Positions 1-14,365 of a stretch of DNA of 64,000 nt are shown here, piece after piece. The notes under the pieces were generated by a model. That model did not search any database, had not been told where the DNA came from, and was given only the letters and a program-made list of their open reading frames with translations. Position 1 is the stretch's first letter, and the number at the start of each line of letters is the position of its first letter. Source of the stretch: a virus (Duplodnaviria; Heunggongvirae; Uroviricota; Caudoviricetes); the IMG/VR virus record IMGVR_UViG_2875703104_000004. One strand, 5' to 3'. The position numbers were made by a program, and so were the translations under genes.

Positions 1-1119
1 TCAAATAACCAACTTAACCCATTCCTGACCTCGAGTATCGTTATAGCGATCGGTGGTTGCCTGGACTTTATGTCCTAGTAATGTTTTTGTATCGATACCC
101 TGTGCACGGTACAGCCGTTCTGATAGAGAGCGTTGTTCATGAAATGTTGGCGAAGTTTTTCCTGCTGGTGGAATTATCCCAGCCAGATCCCGTGCTTTGG
201 CAAAGTAGTCGCTCAGGTTGTCTTTACTCATCGGCTTCGGTTGTTTCTGGTGCCGACTATGGATTAGATATGGACTTAATATTCTGTCTCGGCACCCATC
301 AATAACTTCTTTTAACGTTATCCCAATGGCATCACAGCGTAGTGTAAGCGGTAACGCCAGACGCATTCCGGTTTTTCCCTGGGTGATATGCAAGTGTTCG
401 TTCCACACATCTGAAAAACGCATGTGGCAAATGTCATCACGGCGCTGACCAGTAACAATCGCAAGAAGCATTGCGTTACGGATAAAGTGTTTTTCAGGCG
501 TTGCATTGTAAATTTTTTGCCAGTCTTCCATGGTGAGCCTGGCTCTGGTTACTTTAGGGATCGGTTTACGGGTAGCCTCCGGAGGATTCCATCCAGGAGG
601 AACTTCCCCTGCATGCTGTGCTTCTTTATAAATATCAACCCATAATCCACGATTTACTCTCGCTGTGCTGACCATGTCTTTATCCAGCCACTCATCCAGT
701 ATTAATGCAAAGTCTCTTACTTCCAGTTCTTTCAATGGGTGGTTTCCCAGACGGGAAACCAGGTATGCAGCCATTCGAGTTTTTTCTTTGTGAGTTGTAG
801 CTGCAATATCTCCATTTTTCAGTCGCGTGTCCTGTATTTTCAGATATCGATCAACCCATGCCTTTAATCTGATACCCCGACGTTTTGTTGCTGACGGACT
901 TTCATCAATTTTGCGCATGAAATATTCAGCTTCTGCTGCAGCTATTCGCTGATTGGCTGTGGAAGCGATTTTTTCTGCCTTACCTTTGTCTGTTCCGAGT
1001 CCGTGAAATTTTCCAGTCACAGGATTTTTATACTGGTAGTAAACTCTGCCAGTTCTGCGATCAAACTTTTCGTAAAGACCGGCTACGTCAGTGCTGTTTT
1101 TTCGTGGCCTCGGTGACAT
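1..1119 (-). CDS. int: Prophage integrase, lambda-Int-like tyrosine recombinase (372 aa); its stop codon is bases 1-3 of the window
   Basis: ORF-track ORF; C-terminal catalytic region with ...HEQRSLSERLY...LLGHK...DRY... resembles lambda Int by recall; followed by overlapping xis-like ORF. Confidence 0.9.
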   Translation of the reverse strand: MSPRPRKNSTDVAGLYEKFDRRTGRVYYQYKNPVTGKFHGLGTDKGKAEKIASTANQRIAAAEAEYFMRKIDESPSATKRRGIRLKAWVDRYLKIQDTRLKNGDIAATTHKEKTRMAAYLVSRLGNHPLKELEVRDFALILDEWLDKDMVSTARVNRGLWVDIYKEAQHAGEVPPGWNPPEATRKPIPKVTRARLTMEDWQKIYNATPEKHFIRNAMLLAIVTGQRRDDICHMRFSDVWNEHLHITQGKTGMRLALPLTLRCDAIGITLKEVIDGCRDRILSPYLIHSRHQKQPKPMSKDNLSDYFAKARDLAGIIPPAGKTSPTFHEQRSLSERLYRAQGIDTKTLLGHKVQATTDRYNDTRGQEWVKLVI

Positions 1120-1366
1120 GAGTTAAAATCTCCTTCAGTGCATCATCATCGCCAGTATGAATTTCCGGCGCAATTCCCGTTTCACCAGGCCCAACAAATA
1201 CTGCTCGGCGATCTATCAGCCAACGCCCACGAATTTTTTGTGGCCTTGGAACGATGTATCCTAGTTTTCCGTATTTCACCAGGGTAGTGTTTGTTATTGG
1301 GAGACTGAACCGTTTTGGTTTCCACTCGTCGAGCGTTATCAGGTACTGTTCGCTCATGGCTATCAC
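1088..1366 (-). CDS. xis: Excisionase-like small protein (Xis position, overlaps int start)
   Basis: 92-aa ORF overlapping the 5' end of int, the typical int-xis arrangement; assignment by position and size only. Confidence 0.55.
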   Translation of the reverse strand: MIAMSEQYLITLDEWKPKRFSLPITNTTLVKYGKLGYIVPRPQKIRGRWLIDRRAVFVGPGETGIAPEIHTGDDDALKEILTHVTEATKKQH

Positions 1367-1409
1367 TCCGGAACGCGCCAGTTGCAGAATATCAACGACA
1401 ACTGGCGAC

Positions 1410-1585
1410 GGTTGAACATTAAAAATCAGCCTGACTCGGGATCAGTTTTTGCCAGATAACTGAAACGTATTTTGCCTGGTAACGGGCGTCATCAAGTGCA
1501 TTATGGCGCTCACCTTCGAATGGAATAGCCGTTCTGGCATCGAAGTCTATGGCTTTCCCCAGCTCAACGATTGTGCGTACATCGC
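1410..1585. repeat. Displaced copy (about 176 bp, 1 mismatch) of the 3' end of the exonuclease gene; second copy at 1783-1958
   Basis: Near-identical direct repeat read in the sequence; the second copy encodes the C-terminus of the 863-aa ORF. Confidence 0.8.
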
Positions 1586-1789
1586 CACTCGCCAGCGTCT
1601 TCCAACTTTTTTGGGGAGAGGAAATATCATTCCGGCTTAGCGTATTTACTTAACGTACTCGGAGTTGGGACCGGTTCACTGAATTCCTCTTTTGCCCACT
1701 CAGTGAGCAGAATAAGTCTTGCCATGAGCGTCGTTCGCTAATCATGGTCGCCGCCACTATAGCTGGTGGGCAACGACCGGGGTTGAACA

Positions 1790-4381: not shown

Positions 4382-4474
4382 TATTGGTAAACCTCATCAC
4401 AGATTTAAGGGTGAACAAATCTCTGCCATTGCTGACATATAAGAATGAAACTGGATATTTATTACGGTGCTGTT

Positions 4475-4666
4475 TTAAAATCCTGCCGGGATTTCGTTAT
4501 TATCCTGGTGAATAACTTTATCGACCGGATAACAGTTGCCTGGAATTTTCTGTTCGGTTGCTGCTGCCATACATTCCTGCATTGTTCTGTGAACACTGAC
4601 TGCAATATCAACTGACTCTCCGGAAACAAGAAAAACCGTCAGAATAAGTGCAAATACTGGATTCAT
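4475..4666 (-). CDS. Small hypothetical protein with hydrophobic N-terminus (63 aa)
   Basis: Internal start MNPVFALILTVFLVSG (signal-peptide-like) translationally coupled to the upstream ORF. Confidence 0.4.
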   Translation of the reverse strand: MNPVFALILTVFLVSGESVDIAVSVHRTMQECMAAATEQKIPGNCYPVDKVIHQDNNEIPAGF

Positions 4667-4851
4667 TGTGCACATCCTTTTGGCATCAGACGTAAACGGG
4701 CCAGCATTGAAACAATGCATACTTTATTTAATAACTCCCGTTCGTGTTTTCTTTTGTTAATGGCATCTTCAGTAAATACAGGATTACTGATAGTGACACC
4801 AATTTCAAAACAACCTTCAGACGTATTAACGTTTGGTAATAACGTTTTCAT
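4663..4851 (-). CDS. Small hypothetical prophage protein (62 aa)
   Basis: Internal ATG of ORF 4663-4956 preceded by GAGGG at suitable spacing; ATGA overlap with the next small ORF. Confidence 0.4.
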   Translation of the reverse strand: MKTLLPNVNTSEGCFEIGVTISNPVFTEDAINKRKHERELLNKVCIVSMLARLRLMPKGCAQ

Positions 4852-5120
4852 TATCGCGCCCTCAACAATGAGTTTTGTGATGCGGTGCCTGGTGCCTCCA
4901 GGTGACGTTAACCAGTTAACAATTAACGCCGGATACAGAGAATCCACCCATAACACTGTTTTTGGTTTTAACTGTTCCGCGTGCGCTTAGCCGCATTCAC
5001 CGCATCACAAAATTCACTTTAAAAAGGGCGGCAGAGCAGTCACGGAGTAAAACTGATACCGCCAAACGTCACCAGAAAATTGATAACAGAGGGCGTTGCA
5101 GTGGGGTTGTCACTTAAGCG

Positions 5121-5384
5121 TATGGTCAACCTGACAACCCGGTGTCCTCAACGGGGGAAGGAATAACCCCGCCATACTTACCGCCGCGCCATTTCGCGGA
5201 TTGCCACAACCGGAAGCGCACGGTCGACGAAAATTTAACGACAGGCTATCTATGGTCAACCTGACAACCCGGTGTCCTCAACGGGGGAAGGAATAACCCC
5301 GCCATACTTACCGCCGCGCCATTTCGCGGATTGCCACAACCGGAAGCGCACGGTCGACGAAAATTTAACGACAGGCTATCTATG
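5121..5384. repeat. Perfect tandem duplication of a 132-bp unit (5121-5252, 5253-5384)
   Basis: Seen directly; non-coding context; probably an assembly artefact. Confidence 0.8.
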
Positions 5385-5549
5385 AACCAGCTACCTCGCC
5401 GTGCGCTTTCGCGTTATGGTCTGACTTTTCAGGGAAATATCCTTTCAGTAAACTGTCAGTGCCGGATGCTCACCCGTGTCCGGCGCACGCACTCCACCTC
5501 ACCCGTGGAGAACTCCTTAATTACCAACCTTAGCTTCGTTGGTTATCTA

Positions 5550-5768
5550 TTAACGCGGGTATGTAATCATTCTGGCAATGCTTAATGCCGCTGCTTTTTC
5601 CAGCCTGGTGATATCCTGCTCCAGAGCGGACAGATTTTCAGCCTGCTTAGCTCTGGCTTCATTAGCCCATTTCAGATCCTGCGCTGCATTAATTTTCTGG
5701 CGCATCCACTCATAAAGTTCATCATCGGTATAGTCTGGCGCGATGATGACGGGTTCTCGTTTCTGCAT
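5550..5768 (-). CDS. Hypothetical prophage early-region protein (72 aa)
   Basis: ORF-track ORF in the same orientation as neighbouring early genes; no motif recognised. Confidence 0.4.
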   Translation of the reverse strand: MQKREPVIIAPDYTDDELYEWMRQKINAAQDLKWANEARAKQAENLSALEQDITRLEKAAALSIARMITYPR

Positions 5769-5794
5769 ACTGATTCCTCGCGGTGCTGTTTCGC

Positions 5795-5926
5795 TTATCA
5801 GCCGTTAGATTTTGCCGAACTGGAAAGCGCCTGTTTAAATTCGTTGAAGCTGTGAGCTTCTTCGCCTTCGGCAAGGCCTTCGAAGTATTCTTCGTAAGCC
5901 TTTTCCATGATTGTGTCAAAATCCAT
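5795..5926 (-). CDS. Small acidic hypothetical protein (43 aa; MDFDTIMEKAYEEYFEGLAEGEE...)
   Basis: My own translation; ATG lies 1 nt after the stop of the upstream 78-aa ORF; preferred over the overlapping basic 69-aa GTG-start ORF. Confidence 0.3.
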
Positions 5927-5927
5927 A

Positions 5928-6164
5928 TCACTCACCTGAGTTTCTTTCCAGCCAGCGACGGGCACCATTTTCGGTTTTAAACGTTTTGCTTTTTGTATAC
6001 GTCATTGCGGTGAAGGTGCCGTCCTGGTTTGGAAACACGCCGTACACCAGAGATTCGTTGTTGCCAAGATCGATAGTATCCATGCTGACCTCATTTCCCC
6101 TTAACGCCGGGGTAGCGGAACAAAAACCTGCTGCATAGTTATTAAAGTTGAACCCTGCCGTCAT
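5928..6164 (-). CDS. Hypothetical prophage protein (78 aa)
   Basis: ORF-track ORF; no motif recognised. Confidence 0.45.
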   Translation of the reverse strand: MTAGFNFNNYAAGFCSATPALRGNEVSMDTIDLGNNESLVYGVFPNQDGTFTAMTYTKSKTFKTENGARRWLERNSGE

Positions 6165-6375
6165 GTTCTTACGCCTCGGGCTGGCTACTTAACCCCTGAC
6201 CACTGCCTGGTAACTCGAAGTATTGCCCTGCATTCTGTAGGATGGGGTGAGGGAATGAATGAAGTTTAGAAAAACGAACTTTTCAGGTCAATGTTTTTTT
6301 ATCAAAACATTTTAAGCAGGCAGCTGTTAAGCCATCACCACGATGGCATACAGTTAATCAAATAGATGAGGTTGG

Positions 6376-7014
6376 TTAAATATCTTGTTGAATTTTAAAG
6401 CATACGCCCAATATGCAAGATAGATCATCCAGCATAATTGAAGGGTAGCGAGGATTCGTGGGGACTAAAAGAATATCCGGCCCTTCTATCTCCAGTTTAC
6501 GAATGACAGGTGTTGTGGTCCCTTTGGGTAAGGCAAGGACAATATTTCCTGGTTGTACGGTTCGATCGGGATCAACAAAAACTGTTGAACCATTTGGGAT
6601 GGAAACTCCCCCACCAGATGTTGACATACTGTCACTCTCTAGAACAACTGCAAAGGTATTGACCGGGATTTCTCCGACAAGCTGCACACAAGAGGTTATT
6701 GAGGAATTTTTCATATAATCACTCCAGCTTGCTGCCTGCTGAAGTGATAGTAGCGGAACCGTTTTTATCGGCGGTAAAGATAGATCAAGCGAATCACCTG
6801 TATTTAACTCTCCTCCATTAAGAAGCCAATTTTCGTTTACTTTCAATATTTTTGCCAGTGAACTTATGTAACGCGAGGACGGCGCTCCTCCACCGTTCAT
6901 CCATTGACTTACGGAGCCTTTTGATGCGCCAGTGCCATTGACAAGGTCTTTGCCTTTCAGGTTTAGCGCATGCATACGTTGGGTTATGCGTTCAGATATA
7001 GTTTGCTTGCTCAT
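6376..7014 (-). CDS. cI: CI-like prophage repressor (N-terminal HTH, C-terminal LexA/S24 peptidase-like domain)
   Basis: 212-aa ORF with HTH-like LKGKDLVNGTGASKGSVSQWMNG and a C-terminal Ser/Lys peptidase-like region; divergent from a cro-like gene. Confidence 0.8.
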   Translation of the reverse strand: MSKQTISERITQRMHALNLKGKDLVNGTGASKGSVSQWMNGGGAPSSRYISSLAKILKVNENWLLNGGELNTGDSLDLSLPPIKTVPLLSLQQAASWSDYMKNSSITSCVQLVGEIPVNTFAVVLESDSMSTSGGGVSIPNGSTVFVDPDRTVQPGNIVLALPKGTTTPVIRKLEIEGPDILLVPTNPRYPSIMLDDLSCILGVCFKIQQDI

Positions 7015-7105
7015 GTTTTGATTTTAAAACACAGATGGTTTTGTTTCTTGACTTTCTTTGGTTTTGATTATTAAACTTTTGACGTTCAGTTTTATGGAGC
7101 GACTC
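7015..7105. promoter_or_regulatory. Divergent cI/cro intergenic region with repeated TTTTGA(T/C)-type motifs (candidate operators and promoters)
   Basis: 91-bp AT-rich spacer between divergent repressor genes containing gttttgattt, ggttttgatt and cttttgacg; inferred by analogy to lambdoid OR. Confidence 0.4.
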
Positions 7106-7348
7106 ATGAAAAAATCAGAAGTATTAGGCTATTTTGGCGGAGTTGTTAAAACAGCCGCAGCTCTAGGAACGTCAAAAACCACAGTCAGCATGTGGGGGGA
7201 AGAGGTTCCGTGGAAATGGGCGTTGCTAATTCAGGCAGTCACTGCCGGGGCGCTCAAATATGAGTTACACATACCGACGGTTGTCATTCCCGGTTCTGAT
7301 CATAATCCGCCTTCTAACCAAGGGGGGATTCATGAAAATCAAGCATGA
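7106..7348 (+). CDS. cro: Cro-like HTH regulator (80 aa)
   Basis: GGAG 7 nt upstream of the ATG; HTH-like AALGTSKTTVSMW; divergent from the repressor. Confidence 0.6.
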   Translation: MKKSEVLGYFGGVVKTAAALGTSKTTVSMWGEEVPWKWALLIQAVTAGALKYELHIPTVVIPGSDHNPPSNQGGIHENQA

Positions 7349-7757
7349 ACACATCCGCATGGCGATGAATGCCTGGGCGCATCCGGACGGCGAAAAAGTA
7401 CCGGCTGCGAAAATTACCAAAGCGTATTTCGAGCTGGGAATGACGTTCCCGGAACTGTATGACGACAGCCATCCGGAAGCCCTGGCTCGCAATACCCAGA
7501 AAATTTTCCGCTGGGTAGAGAAAGACACCCCTGATGCAGTTGAAAAAATTCAGGCGTTGTTACCAGCGATCGAAAAGGCAATGCCACCTTTGCTGGTGGC
7601 CAGAATGCGCAGCCACAGTTCAGCTTATTTTCGGGAGCTGGTGGAGACGCGGGAGCGACTGGTGAGAGACGCTGATGATTTTGTCGCAGTGGCAATCGCC
7701 GGTTTCAATCAGATGAACCGTGGTGGCCCGGCAGGAAATGCTGTGGCAGTACATTGA
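7333..7757 (+). CDS. Hypothetical early protein in the cII position (141 aa)
   Basis: Internal ATG at 7333 with AAGGGGGG upstream; begins MKIKHEHIRMAMNAW; position downstream of cro. Confidence 0.5.
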
Positions 7758-7788
7758 CTGACAATAGCCATATCGAATCGCTTCCGGC

Positions 7789-8115
7789 AACTCGTGAGTA
7801 AAAAGATTCGGTATCAGAAGAGGTGAGTATGGCTAACGCCTGGCTCAGATTATGGCATGACATGCCAAATGACCCTAAGTGGCGAACAATTGCCAGGGTG
7901 TCAGGGCAGCCAATTGCAACAGTGATGGCAGTGTATATCCACCTCCTGGTGNAACTCGTGAGTAAAAAGATTCGGTATCAGAAGAGGTGAGTATGGCTAA
8001 CGCCTGGCTCAGATTATGGCATGACATGCCAAATGACCCTAAGTGGCGAACAATTGCCAGGGTGTCAGGGCAGCCAATTGCAACAGTGATGGCAGTGTAT
8101 ATCCACCTCCTGGTG
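7789..8115. repeat. Tandem duplication of about 163 bp (7789-7951 and 7953-8115) joined by an N at 7952
   Basis: Seen directly; duplicates the RBS and first 41 codons of the next gene; likely a contig-join artefact. Confidence 0.8.
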
Positions 8116-9063
8116 AGCGCGTCACGAAATGTCACGCGAGGTCACATTGATGTCACGACAGAAGATTTGGCAAGTGCGCTCGACGTGACAGAAGAGGTAA
8201 TTGATTCAATTTTGCAGACGATGCAGGGGCGGGTACTTGATGGTGATTTAATCACTGGATGGGAAAAACGCCAGGTGCTGAAAGAGGACAACGGCAATAT
8301 TTCGCAAACCGCAAAATCTCCGGCAGAGCGCAAGAGGGCGCAGCGAGAGAGGGAAAGAAAGCGGGAACAAAATGGCGATTGTCACGGCGAGTCACGAAAT
8401 GTCACGCACATGTCACGACGAGTCACGACAGATAAAGATACAGATAAAGATACAGATCAAGAAGATCAAAACACTATGGTCCATGGCGTAAAAAACGCCA
8501 CGAACCAGGCAGGGGATGTTCAGACCGTCACTCCTGGCCAGCCCGCAGGCACGACACCGGAAGCCGATTCAGCGTATGCGCTGAAAGCCGATTCGGGCGC
8601 TGTGCAGCAGGTGATGACCGCAAGGCAGGAGCAATCACACCAACTTCAGCAGCCTGAAGCCGATTCCGCCATTCAGCGGGAAGCCGATCGGGTAGTCCCG
8701 GAAAACACCGGGCAGCCTGTGGGACGAGTGGATTATCCTGATGTGTTCGAACAGGTCTGGCGGGAATACCCGTTGCGTGCCGGGGCAAACCCGAAGAAAT
8801 CCGCTTTCAGTGCCTGGAAAGCCAGATTACGCGAGGGGGTGCCACCAGAGGCCATGCTGGATGGCGTGAGGCGTTACGCAAGATACCTTGCGGCTACCGG
8901 GAAAACGGGAACGGAATTTGTTCAGCGAGCGACGACGTTTTTTGGACCGGACCGGAATTTTGAAAACCCCTGGCTGCTCCCGGTAAGCGGCACGAACAAC
9001 CAGCGTTGTGTGAATCATATTTCTGAACCGGATAACGAAATTCCGCCGGGCTTCAGGGGGTAA
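7993..9063 (+). CDS. Putative prophage replication / replisome-organiser protein (356 aa)
   Basis: ATG at 7993 with GAGGTG upstream; conserved-looking N-terminus MANAWLRLWHDMPNDPKWRTIA (YdaU/DUF1376-like by recall); low-complexity acidic/basic middle. Confidence 0.6.
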   Translation: MANAWLRLWHDMPNDPKWRTIARVSGQPIATVMAVYIHLLVSASRNVTRGHIDVTTEDLASALDVTEEVIDSILQTMQGRVLDGDLITGWEKRQVLKEDNGNISQTAKSPAERKRAQRERERKREQNGDCHGESRNVTHMSRRVTTDKDTDKDTDQEDQNTMVHGVKNATNQAGDVQTVTPGQPAGTTPEADSAYALKADSGAVQQVMTARQEQSHQLQQPEADSAIQREADRVVPENTGQPVGRVDYPDVFEQVWREYPLRAGANPKKSAFSAWKARLREGVPPEAMLDGVRRYARYLAATGKTGTEFVQRATTFFGPDRNFENPWLLPVSGTNNQRCVNHISEPDNEIPPGFRG

Positions 9064-9103
9064 GTGTTAATTTCTGGTCATGAGGTAATTTTCAGGAGGG
9101 CTT

Positions 9104-9526
9104 GTGGCAAAAGTTTTTACACAAGAAGAGCGGGAAAAAATTAAAGGACAGGTTCTTGAACTCGTACGCCAGAGTGGGCGCGAGACGTTACGACAACTGG
9201 AAGCTAAAACTGGGGCAACAAGATATCTGATGAGCGTTCTGGCCAGAGAGCTGGTTGCCAGTGGCGATGTATACAATTCTGGCTACGGGTTATTCCCGTC
9301 TGAACAGGCTCGTAAAGACTGGCAAAATGCCCGCAAAAAATTATCGAGGGCAAAGCTGAAGAAACCGGTTGTGGTTGATCCGGACCTTATCTGGTCGTTA
9401 CCTGACGGAGAAATACGTCGCTACGACAGTCGCCTAAACATAATCTGTCGCGAGTGCCGGAAGAGTGAAGCTATGCAGCGTGTACTGGCTTTCTATCAGG
9501 GTAATTTTCAGGAGGCGGTACTGTGA
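9104..9526 (+). CDS. Hypothetical prophage protein (140 aa)
   Basis: ORF-track ORF; GGAGGG upstream; no motif recognised. Confidence 0.5.
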   Translation: MAKVFTQEEREKIKGQVLELVRQSGRETLRQLEAKTGATRYLMSVLARELVASGDVYNSGYGLFPSEQARKDWQNARKKLSRAKLKKPVVVDPDLIWSLPDGEIRRYDSRLNIICRECRKSEAMQRVLAFYQGNFQEAVL

Positions 9527-9562
9527 GTGAATTTAGCTATCAGGCTTCAATTACCGCTGGCA

Positions 9563-9846
9563 TTCGCATCAAAGGAGAGGAGCATGGAAATAAAACCAGA
9601 GGATGAGTTAAGCAATATCGTTTTATTTCCGGTAAAAGAGGATGACCCTCGTAATCAGGTTAATTTTCTTTATGAGCCATCGGAAAGACCATATTGTCAT
9701 CACGTTCGCATCAAAGGAGAGGAGCATGGAAATAAAACCAGAGGATGAGTTAAGCAATATCGTTTTATTTCCGGTAAAAGAGGATGACCCTCGTAATCAG
9801 GTTAATTTTCTTTATGAGCCATCGGAAAGACCATATTGTCATCACG
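9563..9846. repeat. Tandem duplication of a 142-bp unit (9563-9704, 9705-9846) covering the start of a small gene
   Basis: Seen directly; first copy yields a truncated ORF, second copy the full ORF. Confidence 0.8.
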
Positions 9847-10082
9847 CCTCTGTCCGGGTTGACGAAAAAGAGCGTCAGGTCCGCTGTAAAATCTGCGGTG
9901 CAGTTGTGGAGCCATTTGACTGGATGCTCTCTGTGGCGAAAAGAGAAACCAGACTGGCAGATGATGTAAGGCTCTTGCGTCAGGAGGAGCGGGAAAGGCG
10001 AAAAAATATAGAAAAGCTAATTCAGATTGAGCGTAACGCGAAAGCGCGGATACGCAGGGCGACAAAATCCAGAACTGAATAA
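9726..10082 (+). CDS. Hypothetical protein with Cys/His cluster (CHH...CKICG; zinc-ribbon-like), 118 aa
   Basis: ORF starting MEIKPEDEL in the second repeat copy; basic C-terminus. Confidence 0.5.
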   Translation: MEIKPEDELSNIVLFPVKEDDPRNQVNFLYEPSERPYCHHASVRVDEKERQVRCKICGAVVEPFDWMLSVAKRETRLADDVRLLRQEERERRKNIEKLIQIERNAKARIRRATKSRTE

Positions 10083-10175
10083 TTAAATTTAGCTCTGTTA
10101 AAAATTTAATCCTTAACCGGAGGGATTTCTGCACCCTCAGAACATCAGGAGGCCGCCCGAAAGGGCGGTAGTTAA

Positions 10176-10358
10176 ATGCGAAAGTTTAAAATAATTATTG
10201 AAACGGGAATAGCCGGTGGAGATTTCGAGGATGAATTCGAAGTGGATGATGATGCGACGCCTGATGAAATACATGACGAAGCAAAAGATATTTTCTTTAA
10301 CTACTGCAATTACTCATATCACGAAATAAAAGACAAAGAGGAAGAACAAAATGGCTGA
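10176..10358 (+). CDS. Small acidic hypothetical protein (60 aa)
   Basis: ORF-track ORF; overlaps the start of the next small ORF. Confidence 0.4.
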   Translation: MRKFKIIIETGIAGGDFEDEFEVDDDATPDEIHDEAKDIFFNYCNYSYHEIKDKEEEQNG

Positions 10359-10527
10359 TTTTGGTTCAACTAAATACAACGTCAGTTTTGAAGAATGGCA
10401 TGAACTGTTAATGGACTATGCAGAGTTACGTGGTGGCAGTGCTGCTGATGCTGAAGCATGGCGTGATGATTATGAAGCAGGAAAAACTCCGGTCGAAGCA
10501 TATTGTGATGAGTGGGGCGATGAATGA
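10351..10527 (+). CDS. Small acidic hypothetical protein (58 aa; MADFGSTKYNVSFEEWHELLMDYAEL...)
   Basis: My own translation; stop overlaps the next ATG. Confidence 0.4.
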   Translation: MADFGSTKYNVSFEEWHELLMDYAELRGGSAADAEAWRDDYEAGKTPVEAYCDEWGDE

Positions 10528-10781
10528 GCGAGGTTAATTATCAGGAAGGGCATGAAACGGCGGGGCAAGCAAAAACAGTGGCATGGCGATATCGCTACGT
10601 GAAAAAAAAGGCGTTACGGACTTTCAGGGGAAGTAGTGGTCTGGTGACTGGAAATATGTACCGAAAAAAGAGGATTGTAACGACAGGCCGAACTATGAAA
10701 TTCAGGCCTTATTCACTGCCCCGCCAGTCCCGGTTACATCAGAAGAACTGGTTAAAGCTGTGCACTTTTATGAACAACTAA
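10524..10781 (+). CDS. Hypothetical basic protein (85 aa)
   Basis: ORF-track ORF, translationally coupled to the previous one; composition unusual. Confidence 0.3.
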   Translation: MSEVNYQEGHETAGQAKTVAWRYRYVKKKALRTFRGSSGLVTGNMYRKKRIVTTGRTMKFRPYSLPRQSRLHQKNWLKLCTFMNN

Positions 10782-11010
10782 AACGCGAAAATCCACCAGC
10801 ATCCGGAAACCTGATTACAGATTCCCAGATAAGGCAATGAGCTACCTGGCGCAGAACGGGCTGATAAGTATGGGGAATGTTTTACGATGAATATTTAGAC
10901 TAAAGAGTTTGTAACGCTATGTAAGTGATTTTTTCTGGTTTAGATATTTATATGTCCGGCCAAACTGAGGTGTGTTTAAATGTAATTGCACATTGATTGT
11001 AGGAGGAATA

Positions 11011-11190
11011 ATGAAAAACGCATTGCAGTTTTTGTTTGTTGCGTTCTGGTTGTTCGTATCATGTATGCCCATCATCTTCACAGCAAGGTATATGGAAAAA
11101 GTTGATGTTTTGATATTAATATTTGGATATATAAATGCCCTTTTTTTAGGGGTGTTCATGGCGGTCATGTGCATTGAATACTGGCGGTAA
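11011..11190 (+). CDS. Small two-helix membrane protein (59 aa; MKNALQFLFVAFWLFVSCMPIIF...)
   Basis: Strong AGGAGG RBS 5 nt upstream; two hydrophobic segments; AT-rich. Confidence 0.55.
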   Translation: MKNALQFLFVAFWLFVSCMPIIFTARYMEKVDVLILIFGYINALFLGVFMAVMCIEYWR

Positions 11191-11339
11191 ATACAGCGAA
11201 CGCCATTGGTTTAGTTGGATATTTACTGTGCCGGACAAAAACGGTTTGCGGGGAAATCTTAGTTAAGTAGAATGACTGCGGGTGCTTGAGGCTATCTGTC
11301 TCAGGCATGAACACCAAAAGGCAGATAGAGAAAAGCCCC

Positions 11340-11450
11340 AGTTAACATTACGCGTCCTGCAAGACGCTTAACATTAATCTGAGGCCATATCTATGCGACA
11401 CATAGAGATTAGCCTCTTACGGACCGAAAGGTCAAGGAGAAGCAGGCTAT
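11340..11450 (-). ncRNA. sok: Expected position of Sok-like antisense RNA / mok leader for the hok locus
   Basis: Inferred from the known organisation of hok/sok loci; boundaries not determined from sequence. Confidence 0.25.
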
Positions 11451-11604
11451 GAAGCAGCAAAAGGCGATGTTAATCGCCCTGATCGTCATCTGTTTAACCG
11501 TCATAGTGACGGCACTGGTAACGAGGAAAGACCTCTGCGAGGTACGAATCCGAACCGGCCAGACGGAGGTCGCTGTCTTCACAGCTTACGAACCTGAGGA
11601 GTAA
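11449..11604 (+). CDS. hok: Hok/Gef-family type I toxin (51 aa; MKQQKAMLIALIVICLTVIVTALVTRKDLCEVRIRTGQTEVAVFTAYEPEE)
   Basis: My own translation (below ORF-track size cut-off); matches the Hok family pattern and, by recall, HokD/RelF. Confidence 0.8.
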   Translation: MKQQKAMLIALIVICLTVIVTALVTRKDLCEVRIRTGQTEVAVFTAYEPEE

Positions 11605-11771
11605 GAGACCTGGCGGGGGAGAAATCCCTCGCCACCTCTGATGTGTCAGGCATCCTCAACGCACCCGCACTTAACCCGCTTCGGCGGGTTTTGTTTTTTC
11701 CTGGCATTCTGGTTTACAATTCGCACGTCAGCCTGAACACCTGACACCTGCTGCGCCAGCAGAGAAAACAG

Positions 11772-12044
11772 ATGGCGCACAAAACCAAATTTCACAATTC
11801 TGATACCGACCTTGCCATCCGGCATGAGCGGCGTTCACACGCATTTAAAACCGACTGGTACCAACACCCACCATGTACTGAAGAACAGGCCGAATGGCTG
11901 ATTCATTCTTACCGCAGGCGCGGGTTCGAGGTTAAGAAAGCTCTCAGTCTCGACTATCGGCACTGGATAATCTCTGTCAGGCTGCCTTATTCCGAACGCC
12001 CACCACGTCCGTCCCGCACTTTCCAGCAACGGATCTGGAGGTAA
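11772..12044 (+). CDS. Hypothetical prophage protein (90 aa)
   Basis: ORF-track ORF directly upstream of the DUF968-like gene. Confidence 0.45.
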   Translation: MAHKTKFHNSDTDLAIRHERRSHAFKTDWYQHPPCTEEQAEWLIHSYRRRGFEVKKALSLDYRHWIISVRLPYSERPPRPSRTFQQRIWR

Positions 12045-12045
12045 C

Positions 12046-13104
12046 GTGCGGGTATTACTTAGACCTGTTCTGGTGCCTGAGCTTGGGCTGGTGGTCCTTA
12101 AGCCGGGCCGTGAATCCATACAGATATTTCATAATCCTCGAGTGCTGGTGGAGCCGGAACCGAAAAGCATGTGCGGCCTGCCATCCGGAGTCGTCCCTGC
12201 CGTTCGCCAGCCGCTGGCGGAGGATAAATCATTACTGCCATTTTTCAGCAATGAGCGTGTGATTCGTGCTGCTGGCGGCGCTGGTGCACTGTCTGACTGG
12301 CTGTTGCGCCATATTAAATCCTGCCAGTGGCCACACGGTGATTATCACCACAGTGAAACCGTCATTCACCGTTATGGTACCGGCGCAATGGTGTTGTGCT
12401 GGCACTGCGACAACCAGTTGTGTGACCAGACCTCAGAATCACTTGAGCAACTTGCTCACCAAAACTTGTCAGCATGGATGATTGACGTCATCCGTCACGC
12501 AATCAGCGGTACGCAGGAGAGGGAGTTATCGCTGGCCGAATTATCCTGGTGGGCGGTCTGCAATCAGGTGGCTGATGCGCTTCCGGAGTCTGTATTGTGT
12601 CGTTCACTGGGATTACCGGTGGAAAAAATCCGCTCCGTATACCGTGAGAGTGACATCGTACCGGGAGAACAGACTGCCACCAGCATACTGAAGCAGCGCA
12701 CAAAAAATATTGCGCTGCCACTTCACGTCCACCAGCAACAGCCCCCACTCCAGGAAAAGACGTTAGTAAGCATCGCCGTTGATCCGGAGTCTCCGGCTCA
12801 GTATCTCCAGCGCCAGAAACCACAACGGGAAGAGATGCCTGTATACACGCGCTGGGTAAAAACGCAGAAATGCATGACGTGCGGTAATCAGGCAGATGAT
12901 CCGCATCACATCATTGATCATGGCCTGGGAGGTATGGGAACAAAGGCTGATGATTTGTTTGTTATTCCGCTGTGCCGTAAATGTCATAACGAACTGCACG
13001 CCGGGGTAAAAGATTTTGAAGAAAAACACGGCAGCCAGCTGTTGTTGCTGATTCGTTTTTTAATGCACGCGAGAAATTCGGGTGTCCTGAAGTGGAAAGC
13101 ATGA
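12046..13104 (+). CDS. YdfU/DUF968-like prophage protein with C-terminal HNH-type Cys/His motif
   Basis: 352-aa ORF; C-terminus CMTCGN...DPHHIIDHG...CRKCHNELH; placed before rusA as in Qin-type prophages (recall). Confidence 0.6.
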   Translation: MRVLLRPVLVPELGLVVLKPGRESIQIFHNPRVLVEPEPKSMCGLPSGVVPAVRQPLAEDKSLLPFFSNERVIRAAGGAGALSDWLLRHIKSCQWPHGDYHHSETVIHRYGTGAMVLCWHCDNQLCDQTSESLEQLAHQNLSAWMIDVIRHAISGTQERELSLAELSWWAVCNQVADALPESVLCRSLGLPVEKIRSVYRESDIVPGEQTATSILKQRTKNIALPLHVHQQQPPLQEKTLVSIAVDPESPAQYLQRQKPQREEMPVYTRWVKTQKCMTCGNQADDPHHIIDHGLGGMGTKADDLFVIPLCRKCHNELHAGVKDFEEKHGSQLLLLIRFLMHARNSGVLKWKA

Positions 13105-13485
13105 ATGACTGAACGCATAGAATTTGTTTTGCCTTACCCGCCGACGGTGAATACCTACTGGCGACGTCATGGCAATACGTATTTCATCTCGGAGGCCGGA
13201 AAGCGTTATCGCCGTGATGTGGCGCTAATTGTTCGCCAGCAGCGGCTGAAATTAAACCTGTCCGGAAGGCTGGCGATAAAGGTGATTGCAGAGCCACCGG
13301 ATAAGCGTCGTCGCGACCTGGACAATATCCTGAAAGCACCGCTGGATGCGCTGACGCATGCGGGAGTGTTAATGGACGATGAGCAGTTTGATGAAATCAA
13401 TATCGTTCGTGGTCAGCCAGTATCTGGTGGACGTATGGGGGTGAAGATTTACCCCATAATGCATGAAGAGCAGGTCAAAAAATGA
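13105..13485 (+). CDS. rusA: RusA-family Holliday junction resolvase (126 aa)
   Basis: LPYPPTVNTYWRRHGNTYFISEAGKRYRRDV...RRRDLDNILKAPLDALTHAGVLMDDEQ parallels E. coli RusA, which also occurs at 33441-33803 in this window. Confidence 0.85.
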   Translation: MTERIEFVLPYPPTVNTYWRRHGNTYFISEAGKRYRRDVALIVRQQRLKLNLSGRLAIKVIAEPPDKRRRDLDNILKAPLDALTHAGVLMDDEQFDEINIVRGQPVSGGRMGVKIYPIMHEEQVKK

Positions 13486-14037
13486 AACTGGAAGATTTAC
13501 CGAAATACTACTCCCCAAAATCCCCTGGCCTGACCGATGCATCGGCCTCAACGTCAAAAGATGCGCTGAGTATCACTGATGTGATGGCCGCGCAGGGCAT
13601 GACACAGAATCGGGCTGNGAAAGCGTTATCGCCGTGATGTGGCGCTTATTGTTCGCCAGCAGCGGCTGAAATTAAGCCTGTCCGGAAGGCTGGCGATAAA
13701 GGTGATTGCAGAGCCACCGGATAAGCGTCGTCGCGACCTGGACAATATCCTGAAAGCACCGCTGGATGCGCTGACGCATGCGGGAGTGTTAATGGACGAT
13801 GAGCAGTTTGATGAAATCAATATCGTTCGTGGTCAGCCAGTATCTGGTGGACGTNTGGGGGTGAAGATTTACCCCATAATGCATNAAGAGCAGGTCAAAA
13901 AATGAAACTGGAAGATTTACCGAAATACTACTCCCCAAAATCCCCTGGCCTGACCGATGCATCGGCCTCAACGTCAAAAGATGCGCTGAGTATCACTGAT
14001 GTGATGGCCGCGCAGGGCATGACACAGAATCGGGCTG
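13199..14037. repeat. Tandem duplication of about 419 bp (13199-13617, 13619-14037) joined by an N at 13618
   Basis: Seen directly; second copy carries extra Ns; duplicates the rusA 3' end and Q 5' end; likely a join artefact. Confidence 0.85.
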
Positions 14038-14365
14038 AGATGGGNTTTTCTGCGTTCCTGGGGAAAATGGGCATCAGTATGAATGACAGGGCGCGGGCAA
14101 CAGAATTACTGGCAGATTATGCACTCAGTCGGTGCGATCGTGTGGCGGCGTTGAGAAAACTTCCGGCAGAAATAAAACCGGTAGTGATGCGCATTATGGC
14201 TTCGTACGCTTTTGAGGATTATGCCCGCAGCGCAGCGAGTAAAAAGCAGTGCCCTTGTTGCTATGGGGAAAAATTTATTGAAAGCGTAGTTTTTACAAAC
14301 AAGGTCCAGTATCCGGATGGTAAGCCGCCGGTATGGGCAAAGTGTACGAAAGGTGTGTATTCGTC
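13903..14365 (+). CDS. Q: Lambda-Q-like late antiterminator, 3' end cut off at the N at 14366 (an N-terminal copy also at 13483-13617)
   Basis: KYYSPKSPGLTD...LSITDVMAAQGMTQNRA...CPCCYG resembles lambda Q (FHSPKSP...DVMAAMGM...) by recall. Confidence 0.6.

What the first reader, a model, noticed from the sequence alone, without database searches (positions are those of the whole stretch)
11300..11604. hok/sok-type type I toxin locus inside the prophage early region
A 51-aa ORF missed by the ORF track (MKQQKAMLIALIVICLTVIVTALVTRKDLCEVRIRTGQTEVAVFTAYEPEE) is a Hok/Gef-family toxin. Such loci stabilise mobile elements and can act in phage exclusion.
Basis: partly seen in the sequence, partly recalled or inferred. 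Interest (0 to 1): 0.5.

Follow-up and report, generated by a model that had tools for sequence, protein, structure and literature searches.

The report
Complete hokD-type hok/sok toxin–antitoxin locus
This is an ordinary, already catalogued hok/sok "host-killing" toxin–antisense RNA module (the hokD type) in the early region of an E. coli lambdoid prophage; it is complete, unlike the truncated K-12 copy, and its only unusual feature is a shortened leader reading frame.

Summary
A 51-aa ORF with exactly the quoted sequence lies at 11449..11604 (+). It matches Pfam HOK_GEF (82.9 bits against a cut-off of 22), and the same protein is annotated HokD in RefSeq genomes.

It holds:
- a hok promoter;
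- a 5' leader matching Rfam RF01794 "sok" (106.7 bits against a cut-off of 59);
- tac, ucb, mok SD and dcb elements;
- a 3' fbi element and a terminator;
- an antisense Sok unit at about 11399 to 11331 (-).

The long-range tac–fbi pairing is predicted (z = -8.2) and covaries across 63 non-redundant loci. Removing the 3' end in silico reproduces the plasmid R1 refolding.

One difference stands out. A 2-nt deletion shortens mok to 19 codons, and its UGA overlaps the hok AUG (AUGA). Published R1 mutagenesis indicates this should still permit coupled hok translation. The allele occurs in at least 120 viral contigs, and 92% of the evaluable ones keep hok intact.

The 561-bp locus is 100% identical in many complete E. 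coli genomes, and its homolog hokW–sokW (91% identical) has been characterised experimentally. Verdict: already known, low interest. Stabilisation, lysis assistance and phage exclusion are all untested for this locus.

The parts
11246..11273 (+). Inferred hok promoter: -35 TTGCGG (11246-11251), 16-nt spacer, -10 TAGAAT (11268-11273), then 6 nt to the +1 G at 11280
   Evidence: Read from the sequence. The -10 hexamer (TAGAAT, TATAAT or TATATT) lies exactly 6 nt upstream of the GGG 5' end in nearly all of about 120 related loci. It matches 8 of 12 consensus positions and so fails the strict sigma-70 scan. R1 hok is known to have a weak promoter (my own knowledge).
11280..11699 (+). Full-length hok (mok-hok) mRNA, about 420 nt
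   Evidence: The 5' end is set by position 1 of the Rfam RF01794 alignment. The 3' end is set by the only intrinsic terminator in the region. MFE -175.1 kcal/mol, z = -8.18 against shuffles. The structure is 88.7% paired across 63 loci, against about 41% in the slid controls.
11280..11291 (+). tac (translational activator element), GGGUGCUUGAGG
   Evidence: It pairs with fbi in the full-length MFE fold and with ucb once the 3' end is removed. The helix is 92.6% paired, and 5 of its 12 pairs show changes on both sides.
11333..11339 (+). ucb (upstream complementary box, the anti-SD of mok), AAGCCCC
   Evidence: It pairs with the mok SD (11381-11385) in the full-length fold and switches to tac in the folds truncated at 11640 and 11645.
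11381..11384 (+). mok Shine-Dalgarno GAGG, 8 nt upstream of the mok ATG
   Evidence: The same GAGG motif is reported for R1 (PMC9841398).
11393..11452 (+). mok leader ORF, 19 codons (MRHIEISLLRTERSRRSRL); its UGA (11450-11452) overlaps the hok AUG (11449-11451)
   Evidence: Translation. A 2-nt deletion directly after ATGC distinguishes it from 933W and Rac-442/2. Census of mok types. The exact allele occurs in at least 120 viral contigs.
11413..11416 (+). dcb (downstream complementary box) CCUC, which pairs with the mok SD in the truncated mRNA
   Evidence: Predicted folds of 11280-11640 and 11280-11645.
11434..11439 (+). hok Shine-Dalgarno AAGGAG; it overlaps the sok -35 on the opposite strand
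   Evidence: Sequence. Partly paired in all predicted folds.
11449..11604 (+). hok (hokD allele) ORF, 51 aa: N-terminal transmembrane helix (residues 6-24), Cys15, Cys30, Tyr47
   Evidence: Kyte-Doolittle mean 3.07 for residues 6-24. Annotated WP_000813254.1 HokD in RefSeq genomes.
11586..11592 (+). UUACGAA: Tyr47 codon UAC followed by GAA, which is the TadA A-to-I editing motif (predicted Tyr to Cys recoding)
   Evidence: T-A-C-G-A-A is invariant in all 63 aligned loci. The editing of hokD and its role in forming a disulfide are taken from bioRxiv 10.1101/2025.08.07.668861. Editing was not tested here.
11612..11633 (+). 3' UTR GC-rich hairpin (GGCGGGGGAGAAAUCCCUCGCC), the likely 3' end and protective stem of the processed, translatable mRNA
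   Evidence: Helices 16 and 17 are 82-98% paired with compensatory changes. The role is inferred from R1 (PMC9841398).
11654..11666 (+). fbi (fold-back inhibition element), CCUCAACGCACCC
   Evidence: It pairs with tac, with covariation.
11673..11699 (+). Intrinsic terminator of the hok mRNA (stem 11673-11690, then TTGTTTTTT)
11406..11435 (-). Inferred sok promoter: -35 TTGACC (11435 down to 11430), 18-nt spacer, -10 TAATCT (11411 down to 11406); alternatively a 16-nt spacer and GCTAAT
   Evidence: It lies at the position homologous to TTGCCT-17-TAACCT of the 933W/Sp5 sokW promoter, where mutations in the -10 region abolished antitoxin activity (PMC8621323; annotation). It is not found by the strict scan.
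11331..11399 (-). Sok antisense RNA, about 69 nt: about 13 nt of 5' tail covering the mok start codon, a long hairpin, then UUUU
   Evidence: Coordinates transferred from the sokW feature of 933W through alignment A1. Fold -29.3 kcal/mol, z = -5.0. The AGAAAAGCCCC segment that encodes the U-tail is at least 90% conserved.

Best explanation

Shown here:
- The Hok ORF is intact.
- The 5' leader is a full-length match to the Rfam hok-leader model.
- The 5' end (tac) and a 3' UTR box (fbi) are complementary, and that pairing covaries across relatives.
- A structured antisense unit with a U-tail lies opposite the mok start.

Inferred from the R1 paradigm and supported by folding predictions:
1. A weak promoter makes a stable mRNA of about 420 nt. 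It is locked closed by tac-fbi, with the mok ribosome-binding site hidden by ucb.
2. Slow 3' trimming removes fbi. tac then pairs with ucb, and the mok start region becomes open both to ribosomes and to Sok.
3. While the unstable Sok RNA is being made, it pairs with this region and the duplex is destroyed by RNase III.
4. When Sok runs out, ribosomes translate the 19-codon mok and stop on the UGA that overlaps the hok AUG. They start hok by coupling. Sok could run out through loss of the element, transcription shut-off, or SOS/prophage induction as shown for hokW.
5. Hok inserts into the inner membrane and collapses the membrane potential. It probably needs TadA editing of Tyr47 to Cys for full toxicity.

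The biological role in this prophage is not established. It could be prophage retention, help with lysis or phage release, or exclusion of other phages.
For: - ORF and family. The protein sequence is identical to that of K-12-type HokD loci, and the gene is annotated hokD in RefSeq genomes.
- Leader: RF01794 at 106.7 bits, against a gathering score of 59, full length 1-157.
- tac-fbi closure in the MFE fold, z = -8.18.
- Covariation on 63 non-redundant loci: 88.7% of cells paired against about 41% in the slid controls. 49 pairs have changes on both sides, against 32.0 +/- 2.7 in shuffles. The tac-fbi helix is 92.6% paired, with 5 of 12 pairs changed on both sides.
- Predicted conformational switch on 3' truncation: tac moves from fbi to ucb, and the mok SD moves from ucb to dcb. 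This matches the description in PMC9841398.
- Sok: structured antisense RNA with a U-tail, at the position of the annotated sokW. The promoter hexamers are positionally conserved.
- Short mok should be permissive. In R1, mok translation is needed only up to the hok SD and start, and stop codons after the hok start are harmless (PMC9841398).
- The short-mok allele occurs in at least 120 viral contigs. 97 of 105 evaluable loci keep an intact 51-aa Hok, across 58 distinct locus sequences. The same configuration arose independently in hokC-like loci of E. ruysiae and E. whittamii.
- The 91%-identical hokW-sokW locus is an experimentally working type I TA (PMC8621323).
Against: - No expression or toxicity data exist for this allele.
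- The strict sigma-70 scan finds neither promoter. The sok promoter has an 18-nt spacer, where the validated sokW promoter has 17.
- mok is the minority type: about 15 of 125 loci in the census, against about 95 with a 68-70-codon mok in frame with hok. Coupling through a stop codon placed exactly on the hok AUG has not been tested.
- 8 of 105 short-mok loci have a broken hok.
- Chromosomal hokA, hokB and hokC loci were reported not to mediate post-segregational killing (bioRxiv 10.1101/2025.08.07.668861).
- The NCBIfam Hok models hit below their curated cut-offs (48.5 against 73).
- The MFE switch is a prediction. It depends on where the 3' end is placed: ending the RNA at 11652 gives a different local 5' hairpin.
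Confidence: 0.8

Rival explanations
1. Structurally complete but functionally inert relic. The module is carried along with the prophage without working as a TA system. Possible causes are that the 2-nt deletion in mok weakens coupling, that the promoters are weak, or that chromosomal context prevents activation, as was reported for other chromosomal hok loci.
For: The mok allele is a minority type created by a 2-nt deletion. No consensus promoter is detected. The sok promoter spacer is 18 nt. 8 of 105 loci with this allele carry a frameshifted or truncated hok. Chromosomal hokA, hokB and hokC were reported unable to mediate PSK or to respond to rifampicin (bioRxiv 10.1101/2025.08.07.668861). 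K-12 hokD itself is a leaderless remnant.
Against: Every known regulatory element is present, and the long-range structure is maintained by compensatory changes. 92% of loci with this allele keep hok intact, across 58 distinct sequences and many flanking contexts. [quoted passage not shown] The close homolog hokW-sokW is active (PMC8621323).
Confidence: 0.15
2. The module works, but its main role is as a lysis or phage-release accessory triggered by prophage induction, as for hokW-sokW in Sp5. On this reading it is not primarily a stabilisation or phage-exclusion device. Because it lies in the early-right operon, read-through transcripts during induction could add to hok expression.
For: hokW-sokW is 91% identical at the DNA level. 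After mitomycin C, Sok falls and HokW rises in a RecA-dependent manner, and deleting the locus halves phage yield (PMC8621323). The locus is on the same strand as the early-right genes, and no terminator was detected in the 180 nt scanned upstream (11100-11279).
Against: hokW lies at a different place in its phage, near the late-region end. Read-through transcripts would lack the native 5' end (tac) and might never reach the translatable form. No data exist for this prophage, and it is unclear whether it can still be induced. The assembly shows duplications in several of its genes, so its integrity cannot be judged from this window.
Confidence: 0.3
3. The module acts mainly as an abortive-infection or exclusion system against superinfecting lytic phages. 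Host transcription shut-off would deplete Sok and release Hok.
For: R1 hok/sok on a high-copy plasmid reduced T4 infection (reviewed in PMC4147584). hok genes are about four-fold enriched in prophages (bioRxiv 10.1101/2025.08.07.668861).
Against: No PADLOC model matches. The same preprint found no enrichment of hok next to defence systems. The T4 effect needed high copy number. Nothing in the window links the locus to other defence genes.
Confidence: 0.1
4. The ORF is a chance open frame, or an assembly artefact, with no gene behind it.
For: The ORF is short (51 aa). The window does contain assembly-like tandem duplications elsewhere.
Against: Full-length Pfam and PHROG matches. An Rfam leader match. 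100% identity to thousands of bases in finished genomes. The locus lies inside a 3.9-kb block that is 99.97% identical to a complete genome and contains no duplication junction.
Confidence: 0.01

Closest known systems
hokD (relF) of E. coli K-12 cryptic prophage Qin
   Same: The Hok protein sequence is the same as that of K-12-type leaderless hokD loci (L036, L088). In the four-way DNA alignment with the K-12 locus itself (L004), the coding region shows no K-12-specific difference, and the 3' UTR has the same fbi and terminator, from about 14 nt upstream of the ATG onwards. The downstream neighbours are the same: a rem-like ORF and then ydfU/DUF968. The prophage type is the same, with DicF/dicB/ydfABC upstream.
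   Different: K-12 hokD has lost the whole leader (promoter, tac, ucb, mok and sok), which is replaced by the 3' end of relE. The window carries the full-length, apparently ancestral form.
hokW-mokW-sokW of Stx2 phage 933W / Sakai prophage Sp5
   Same: 91% DNA identity over the leader and ORF. It has the same tac, ucb, mok SD, fbi and Sok layout. It is an experimentally validated type I TA with RNase III- and Hfq-dependent Sok (PMC8621323).
   Different: mokW starts 57 nt upstream and is in frame with hokW (70 aa), whereas the window's mok starts 56 nt upstream and has 19 codons. The sok promoter spacer is 17 nt against 18 nt. HokW differs at the C-terminus (VFVDYESEK). hokW lies near the late end of the phage genome, not in the nin-like region, and it lacks the GC hairpin terminator seen here.
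hok/sok (parB) of plasmid R1
   Same: Same family and regulatory logic: tac/fbi closure, ucb/dcb switch, mok-coupled translation, cis-antisense Sok, and 19 mok codons upstream of the hok start (PMC9841398).
   Different: R1 Hok has 52 aa. HokW, the close relative of the window's Hok, is 44% identical to it (PMC8621323). R1 mok has 70 codons and overlaps hok. R1 is plasmid-borne, with demonstrated post-segregational killing. R1 was not aligned here; the comparison rests on the literature and on the Rfam model.
Other chromosomal hok loci (hokA, hokB, hokC/gef, hokE)
   Same: Same Pfam family and leader architecture. hokC-like loci of several Escherichia species align along the full length, including tac and fbi.
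   Different: 70-82% protein identity to the window's Hok. They sit at core-chromosome sites rather than in prophages. They are reported inactive for PSK (bioRxiv 10.1101/2025.08.07.668861).

Membership tests
Hok/Gef toxin family (Pfam PF01848) | Protein of about 50 aa that matches the family HMM above its curated threshold | tested here: met
   PF01848 at 82.9 bits against a cut-off of 22, model positions 1-42 of 42. PHROG 251 at 114.7 bits. Caveat: the NCBIfam Hok subfamily and HokA equivalog models hit below their cut-offs (48.5 against 73, and 40.2 against 89).
Hok/Gef toxin family (Pfam PF01848) | Single N-terminal transmembrane helix followed by a polar periplasmic tail | tested here: met
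   Residues 6-24 (AMLIALIVICLTVIVTALV) have a mean Kyte-Doolittle value of 3.07. The C-terminal half is polar.
Hok/Gef toxin family (Pfam PF01848) | Conserved Cys at about position 30-31, and Cys or an editable Tyr (UAC-G) at about position 46-48 | tested here: met
   Cys30 in KDLCEV. Tyr47 UAC followed by GAA at 11587-11592, invariant in 63 loci. The criterion is taken from bioRxiv 10.1101/2025.08.07.668861.
Hok/Gef toxin family (Pfam PF01848) | Membrane depolarisation or cell killing on expression | not testable with these tools
   Needs an experiment. The near-identical HokW is toxic when induced (PMC8621323).
[quoted passage not shown] | Conserved hok mRNA leader | tested here: met
   RF01794 at 106.7 bits against a gathering score of 59, model positions 1-157 of 157, at 11280-11451 on the + strand.
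[quoted passage not shown] | Long-range 5'-3' closure (tac-fbi) of the full-length mRNA | tested here: met
   Present in the MFE fold. 92.6% paired across 63 loci, with 5 of 12 pairs changed on both sides. Slid controls are about 41% paired.
[quoted passage not shown] | ucb sequesters the mok SD, and 3' processing switches the fold to tac-ucb and mok SD-dcb | tested here: met
   The switch appears in predicted folds of 11280-11697 compared with 11280-11640 and 11280-11645. This is a prediction only. The real 3' processing site is unknown.
[quoted passage not shown] | mok leader ORF with its own SD, whose translation reaches the hok SD and start codon | tested here: met
   GAGG, then 8 nt, then ATG at 11393. 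The ORF has 19 codons, and its UGA at 11450-11452 overlaps the hok AUG. It differs from the usual 55-70-codon mok. R1 data indicate that the part beyond the hok start is dispensable (PMC9841398).
[quoted passage not shown] | Cis-antisense Sok RNA with its own promoter and terminator, complementary to the mok translation-initiation region | tested here: inconclusive
   There is a structured 69-nt antisense unit with a U-tail (z = -5.0) at the position homologous to the annotated sokW. The promoter TTGACC-18-TAATCT is positionally conserved but fails the strict consensus scan. Transcription was not shown.
[quoted passage not shown] | Sok-dependent repression and killing when Sok decays (post-segregational killing, rifampicin activation) | not testable with these tools
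   Needs experiments.
Anti-phage defence systems (PADLOC catalogue) | Protein matches a catalogued defence-system model | tested here: not met
   No PADLOC hit for Hok or for its neighbours.

The most novel reading that the evidence does not exclude
The short-mok allele may be a naturally occurring, functional termination-reinitiation variant of hok/sok, with 19 codons and a UGA overlapping the hok AUG as AUGA. The related loci show three mok configurations: mok ATG at -57, in frame with hok, 68-70 aa; at -58, in the +1 frame, 55-69 codons; and at -56, 19 codons. If all three work, nature has repeatedly changed the mok frame while preserving only the act of translating into the hok start. Some of the frame-shifting indels lie inside the sok promoter spacer, so they could be by-products of tuning Sok expression. 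This would be a natural confirmation of the R1 mutagenesis result and a small refinement of the model, not a new system.
Probability: 0.5. Interest if true: 0.25.

Novelty: already known. Interest (0 to 1): 0.12.

Why it matters
It matters little beyond correct annotation. RefSeq pipelines annotate only the hokD CDS at this locus. The mok ORF, the Sok RNA and the mRNA control elements go unannotated, and a probably spurious antisense ORF is annotated across the terminator.

The locus is a useful reminder that the K-12 reference hokD is a leaderless remnant, while many clinical E. coli lineages carry the complete module in inducible-type prophages. Identical copies are annotated in ST131 strains such as EC958 and JJ1886 and in ETEC H10407.

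If the short-mok allele is functional, it offers a natural test of the rule that only translation up to the hok start matters. Whether such prophage hok/sok loci serve retention, lysis assistance or exclusion remains open, but this locus does not make that question newly tractable.

Tried and rejected
1. The strict sigma-70 scan of 11100-11850 found no promoter. I therefore inferred the promoters from positional conservation and from homology to the sokW promoter. This is weaker evidence, and I say so in the report.
2. I first assumed the window was the ST131 EC958 prophage. BLAST showed only about 9.7-14.4 kb is near-identical and the rest is mosaic. The closest finished genome for 1-14365 is CUVET21-H2.
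3. A sub-threshold Rfam match of the hok 3' UTR to Salmonella IsrK (27 bits against 50) was followed into the literature. IsrK lies downstream of antQ in Gifsy-1, and no paper links it to hok. I treat it as a probable resemblance of shape only (a hairpin plus a terminator).
4. PADLOC gave no defence-system assignment.
5. NCBIfam gave only sub-cut-off Hok hits, so the hokD name rests on sequence identity to annotated proteins, not on an NCBIfam model.
6. I considered using the 100% conservation of Hok across the 80 viral loci as evidence of purifying selection. I rejected this because those loci were selected by protein identity. I used the pattern-selected set instead.
7. A search for a second hok copy in the window found none.
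8. I did not use protein homology searches, structure prediction or fold searches. The family assignment was already unambiguous.

Full report
**1. Observation**

It is not a chance ORF:
- It matches Pfam PF01848 (HOK_GEF) over the whole 42-position model at 82.9 bits, against a cut-off of 22.
- It matches PHROG 251 'MokW-like host killing' at 114.7 bits.
- Residues 6-24 form a strongly hydrophobic segment, with a mean Kyte-Doolittle value of 3.07.
- There is only one hok copy in the window.

NCBIfam's Hok models hit only below their curated cut-offs. The hokD name therefore comes from sequence identity to annotated proteins. The 561 bp at 11200-11760 is 100% identical in many complete E. coli chromosomes, including ST131 EC958 and JJ1886 and ETEC H10407. 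There the CDS is annotated 'type I toxin-antitoxin system toxin HokD', WP_000813254.1.

**2. Context**

The window begins at a prophage integrase (1..1119, -). Up to 14365 it is collinear with a prophage next to potC in E. coli CUVET21-H2.

The gene order is int, xis, exonuclease, DUF1482, dicB, DicF RNA (5026-5077, -), ydfC/B/A, CI-like repressor, cro, ydaT, replication genes, DUF977, several small ORFs, hokD, a rem-like ORF, DUF968, RusA and Q. This is the Qin/DicF type of lambdoid prophage.

hok lies in the delayed-early, nin-like segment, on the same strand as the early-right genes.

**3. Anatomy**

Rfam's RF01794 'sok' model matches 11280..11451 (+) at 106.7 bits over all 157 positions, against a gathering score of 59. 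The match lies on the same strand as hok and ends at the hok start codon, so it covers the hok mRNA leader.

From the sequence and from alignment to the annotated mokW/hokW/sokW of phage 933W, the parts are:
- hok promoter: TTGCGG, 16 nt, TAGAAT (11246-11273)
- +1 at G11280
- tac: 11280-11291
- ucb: 11333-11339
- mok SD GAGG: 11381-11384
- mok ATG: 11393
- dcb CCUC: 11413-11416
- hok SD AAGGAG: 11434-11439
- hok ORF: 11449-11604
- GC-rich hairpin: 11612-11633
- fbi: 11654-11666
- intrinsic terminator: 11673-11690 plus a T-run

On the minus strand lies a sok promoter, TTGACC-18-TAATCT (11435 down to 11406). It is followed by a Sok RNA of about 69 nt (about 11399 down to 11331). This RNA folds as a 5' single-stranded tail, a long hairpin and UUUU (-29.3 kcal/mol, z = -5.0).

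**4. Tests of the RNA architecture**

The 418-nt transcript folds at -175.1 kcal/mol, z = -8.18. Its first 12 nt pair with CCUCAACGCACCC near the 3' end.

I collected 133 related loci: 80 viral contigs and 53 genome loci from Escherichia, Shigella, Kluyvera, Photorhabdus, Citrobacter, Pantoea and others. I reduced them to 63 sequences below 98% identity and aligned them.

With the window's MFE structure mapped onto this alignment:
- 88.7% of cells form standard pairs, against about 41% when the partners are slid by 1-3 columns.
- 49 pairs show changes on both sides, against 32.0 +/- 2.7 in shuffles.
- The tac-fbi helix is 92.6% paired. 5 of its 12 pairs show compensatory changes; for example, one pair is U-A in 48 sequences and C-G in 10.

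Folding progressively 3'-truncated RNAs reproduces the R1 switch:
- With fbi present, tac pairs with fbi, and ucb pairs with the mok SD.
- When the RNA ends at 11640 or 11645, tac pairs with ucb, and the mok SD pairs with dcb.
- Ending the RNA at 11652 gives a local 5' hairpin reminiscent of the metastable structure described for nascent R1 transcripts.

These match the elements described in PMC9841398. They are predictions; the true processing site is unknown.

**5. Promoters**

The strict consensus scan finds no sigma-70 promoter in 11100-11850.

Positional conservation is nevertheless strong. A TAGAAT, TATAAT or TATATT hexamer lies exactly 6 nt upstream of the GGG 5' end in nearly all loci.

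The sok -35 and -10 occupy the positions of TTGCCT-17-TAACCT, the majority form. In the Sp5 phage, mutating the -10 region of that promoter abolished antitoxin activity (PMC8621323).

The window's sok spacer is 18 nt, or 16 nt if GCTAAT serves as the -10.

**6. The one unusual feature: mok**

The three full-length loci in the first alignment place the upstream ATG at 56, 57 and 58 nt from the hok ATG.

In the window, a 2-nt deletion right after ATGC gives a 19-codon ORF, MRHIEISLLRTERSRRSRL. Its UGA (11450-11452) overlaps the hok AUG.

A census of about 125 loci gives:
- **-57 type, about 95 loci:** mok in frame with hok, 68-70 aa.
- **-58 type, about 9 loci:** +1 frame, 55-69 codons.
- **-56 type, 15 loci:** the short form. 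Two of these are hokC-like loci of E. ruysiae and E. whittamii, so it arose independently there.

The hok start context ATGAA is invariant. Any -56-type mok therefore ends on that UGA.

R1 saturation mutagenesis shows that mok must be translated up to the hok SD and start, but not beyond. R1 mok also has 19 codons upstream of the hok start (PMC9841398). By inference, the short mok is compatible with coupled hok translation.

The exact 28-mer of this allele occurs in at least 120 viral contigs. Of 105 evaluable loci, 97 keep an intact 51-aa Hok, across 58 distinct locus sequences and many flanks; 8 have a broken hok. The allele is therefore old and widespread rather than a recent lesion, though some decay occurs.

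Two of the indels that differ between mok types lie within the sok promoter spacer. Part of the frame variation may be a by-product of changes in spacer length.

**7. Comparison with known systems**

K-12 hokD (relF) matches the window only from about 14 nt upstream of the ATG onwards. Its leader, mok and sok are replaced by the end of relE. The window therefore holds the complete form of the same gene. The K-12 reference copy is a remnant.

hokW-sokW of 933W/Sp5 is 91% identical. It has been shown to be a functional type I TA. Its Sok needs RNase III and Hfq, and the locus aids lysis and doubles phage release after mitomycin C (PMC8621323).

A recent survey found hok about four-fold enriched in prophages. 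It also reports that Tyr-to-Cys recoding by TadA at a UAC-G site is conserved in hokC, hokD and hokE-type genes (bioRxiv 10.1101/2025.08.07.668861). The window has that motif, UUACGAA at 11586-11592 with Tyr47, and it is invariant in all 63 aligned loci.

Phage exclusion by hok/sok rests on a high-copy R1 experiment with T4 (PMC4147584). PADLOC has no matching model.

**8. Verdict**

The locus is a member of a thoroughly studied family. It is already annotated at the CDS level in thousands of genomes and has a close relative that has been characterised experimentally.

Novelty: already known. Interest: low, about 0.12.

The most novel reading that remains is that the short-mok allele is a functional natural termination-reinitiation variant. 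I give that a probability of about 0.5, and it would be of modest interest.

The locus's actual role in this prophage is untested. It could be retention, lysis assistance or exclusion.

**9. Assembly caveat**

Relative to the closest finished genome, the window carries six tandem or near-tandem duplications of 129-422 nt. Several fall inside genes. They look like untrimmed assembly overlaps.

None touches the hok locus. It lies in a 3.9-kb block that is 99.97% identical to that genome.

Noticed in passing
window 1410-1585/1781-1956; 2506-2634/2656-2784; 5121-5250/5251-5380; 7789-7951/7953-8115; 9563-9704/9705-9846; 13199-13620/13619-14040: Six tandem or near-tandem direct duplications of 129-422 nt (98.8-100% identical between copies) are present in the window but absent from the closest complete genome (CUVET21-H2), which is otherwise 99.6-100% identical over 1-14365. 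Several fall inside genes (exonuclease, replication gene, RusA/Q). They look like untrimmed overlaps from assembly or stitching rather than biology.
   Followed up: partly
window 11011-11190 (+): An unannotated 59-aa, very hydrophobic ORF (MKNALQFLFVAFWLFVSCMPIIF...) with a strong AGGAGG Shine-Dalgarno 6 nt upstream, in an AT-rich segment just upstream of hok. It has no Pfam, PHROG, NCBIfam or PADLOC match, and no CDS is annotated there in RefSeq genomes. It could be a small membrane-protein moron.
   Followed up: partly
window 5026-5077 (-): DicF antisense sRNA (Rfam RF00039, 76.7 bits against a cut-off of 48) between dicB and ydfC. This marks the prophage as the Qin/DicF type. It lies about 45 nt from one of the duplication junctions.
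   Followed up: no
window 11586-11592 (+): UUACGAA (Tyr47 UAC plus GAA) is invariant across all 63 aligned hok loci. To my knowledge (not tested here), the same heptamer forms the anticodon loop of tRNA-Arg(ACG), the natural TadA substrate. It fits the reported TadA A-to-I editing that recodes Tyr to Cys in hokD-type mRNAs (bioRxiv 10.1101/2025.08.07.668861).
   Followed up: partly
window 11613-11694 (+): A full-length but sub-threshold Rfam match of the hok 3' UTR (hairpin, fbi, terminator) to Salmonella Gifsy-1 IsrK (27.2 bits against a gathering score of 50, E = 0.0024 in a 2-kb search). The literature places IsrK downstream of antQ and does not link it to hok. It is probably a resemblance of shape only.
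   Followed up: partly
window 11646-11825 (-): RefSeq genomes annotate a 59-aa 'hypothetical protein' (WP_001112736.1) antisense to the hok terminator and to the start of the rem-like gene. Given the overlap with a structured terminator and a sense-strand gene, it is probably a spurious call. mok and Sok, by contrast, are not annotated.
   Followed up: no
L004 (E. coli K-12 MG1655, 1645119-1645350, minus strand): The K-12 reference hokD matches full-length hokD loci only from about 14 nt upstream of its ATG. Its promoter, tac, ucb, mok and sok are all replaced by relE sequence. The same leaderless form appears in L036, L040, L081, L088 and L125.
   Followed up: yes
alignment A2 columns about 160-205 (window 11393-11436): The single-base indels that distinguish the -57 mok type from the -58 and -56 types include a T in AAAGG(T)CAAGG and an A in ATT(A)GCC. 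Both lie inside the sok promoter spacer, and in several lineages they compensate to keep a 17-nt spacer. The window has both bases, giving 18 nt. mok frame changes may be partly by-products of tuning the sok promoter.
   Followed up: partly
L099 (Acinetobacter idrijaensis, 275-bp contig), L104 (Xanthomonas pisi, 431-bp contig), L137 (Candidatus Scatousia MAG); H30 Actinobacillus phage vB_Apl-pPE4: Near-identical E. coli-type hokD sequences (91-95% DNA identity to the window locus) turn up on very short contigs of unrelated genera, in a MAG, and in a phage record assigned to Actinobacillus. These are most likely contamination with E. coli or coliphage DNA, or wrong host assignments.
   Followed up: no
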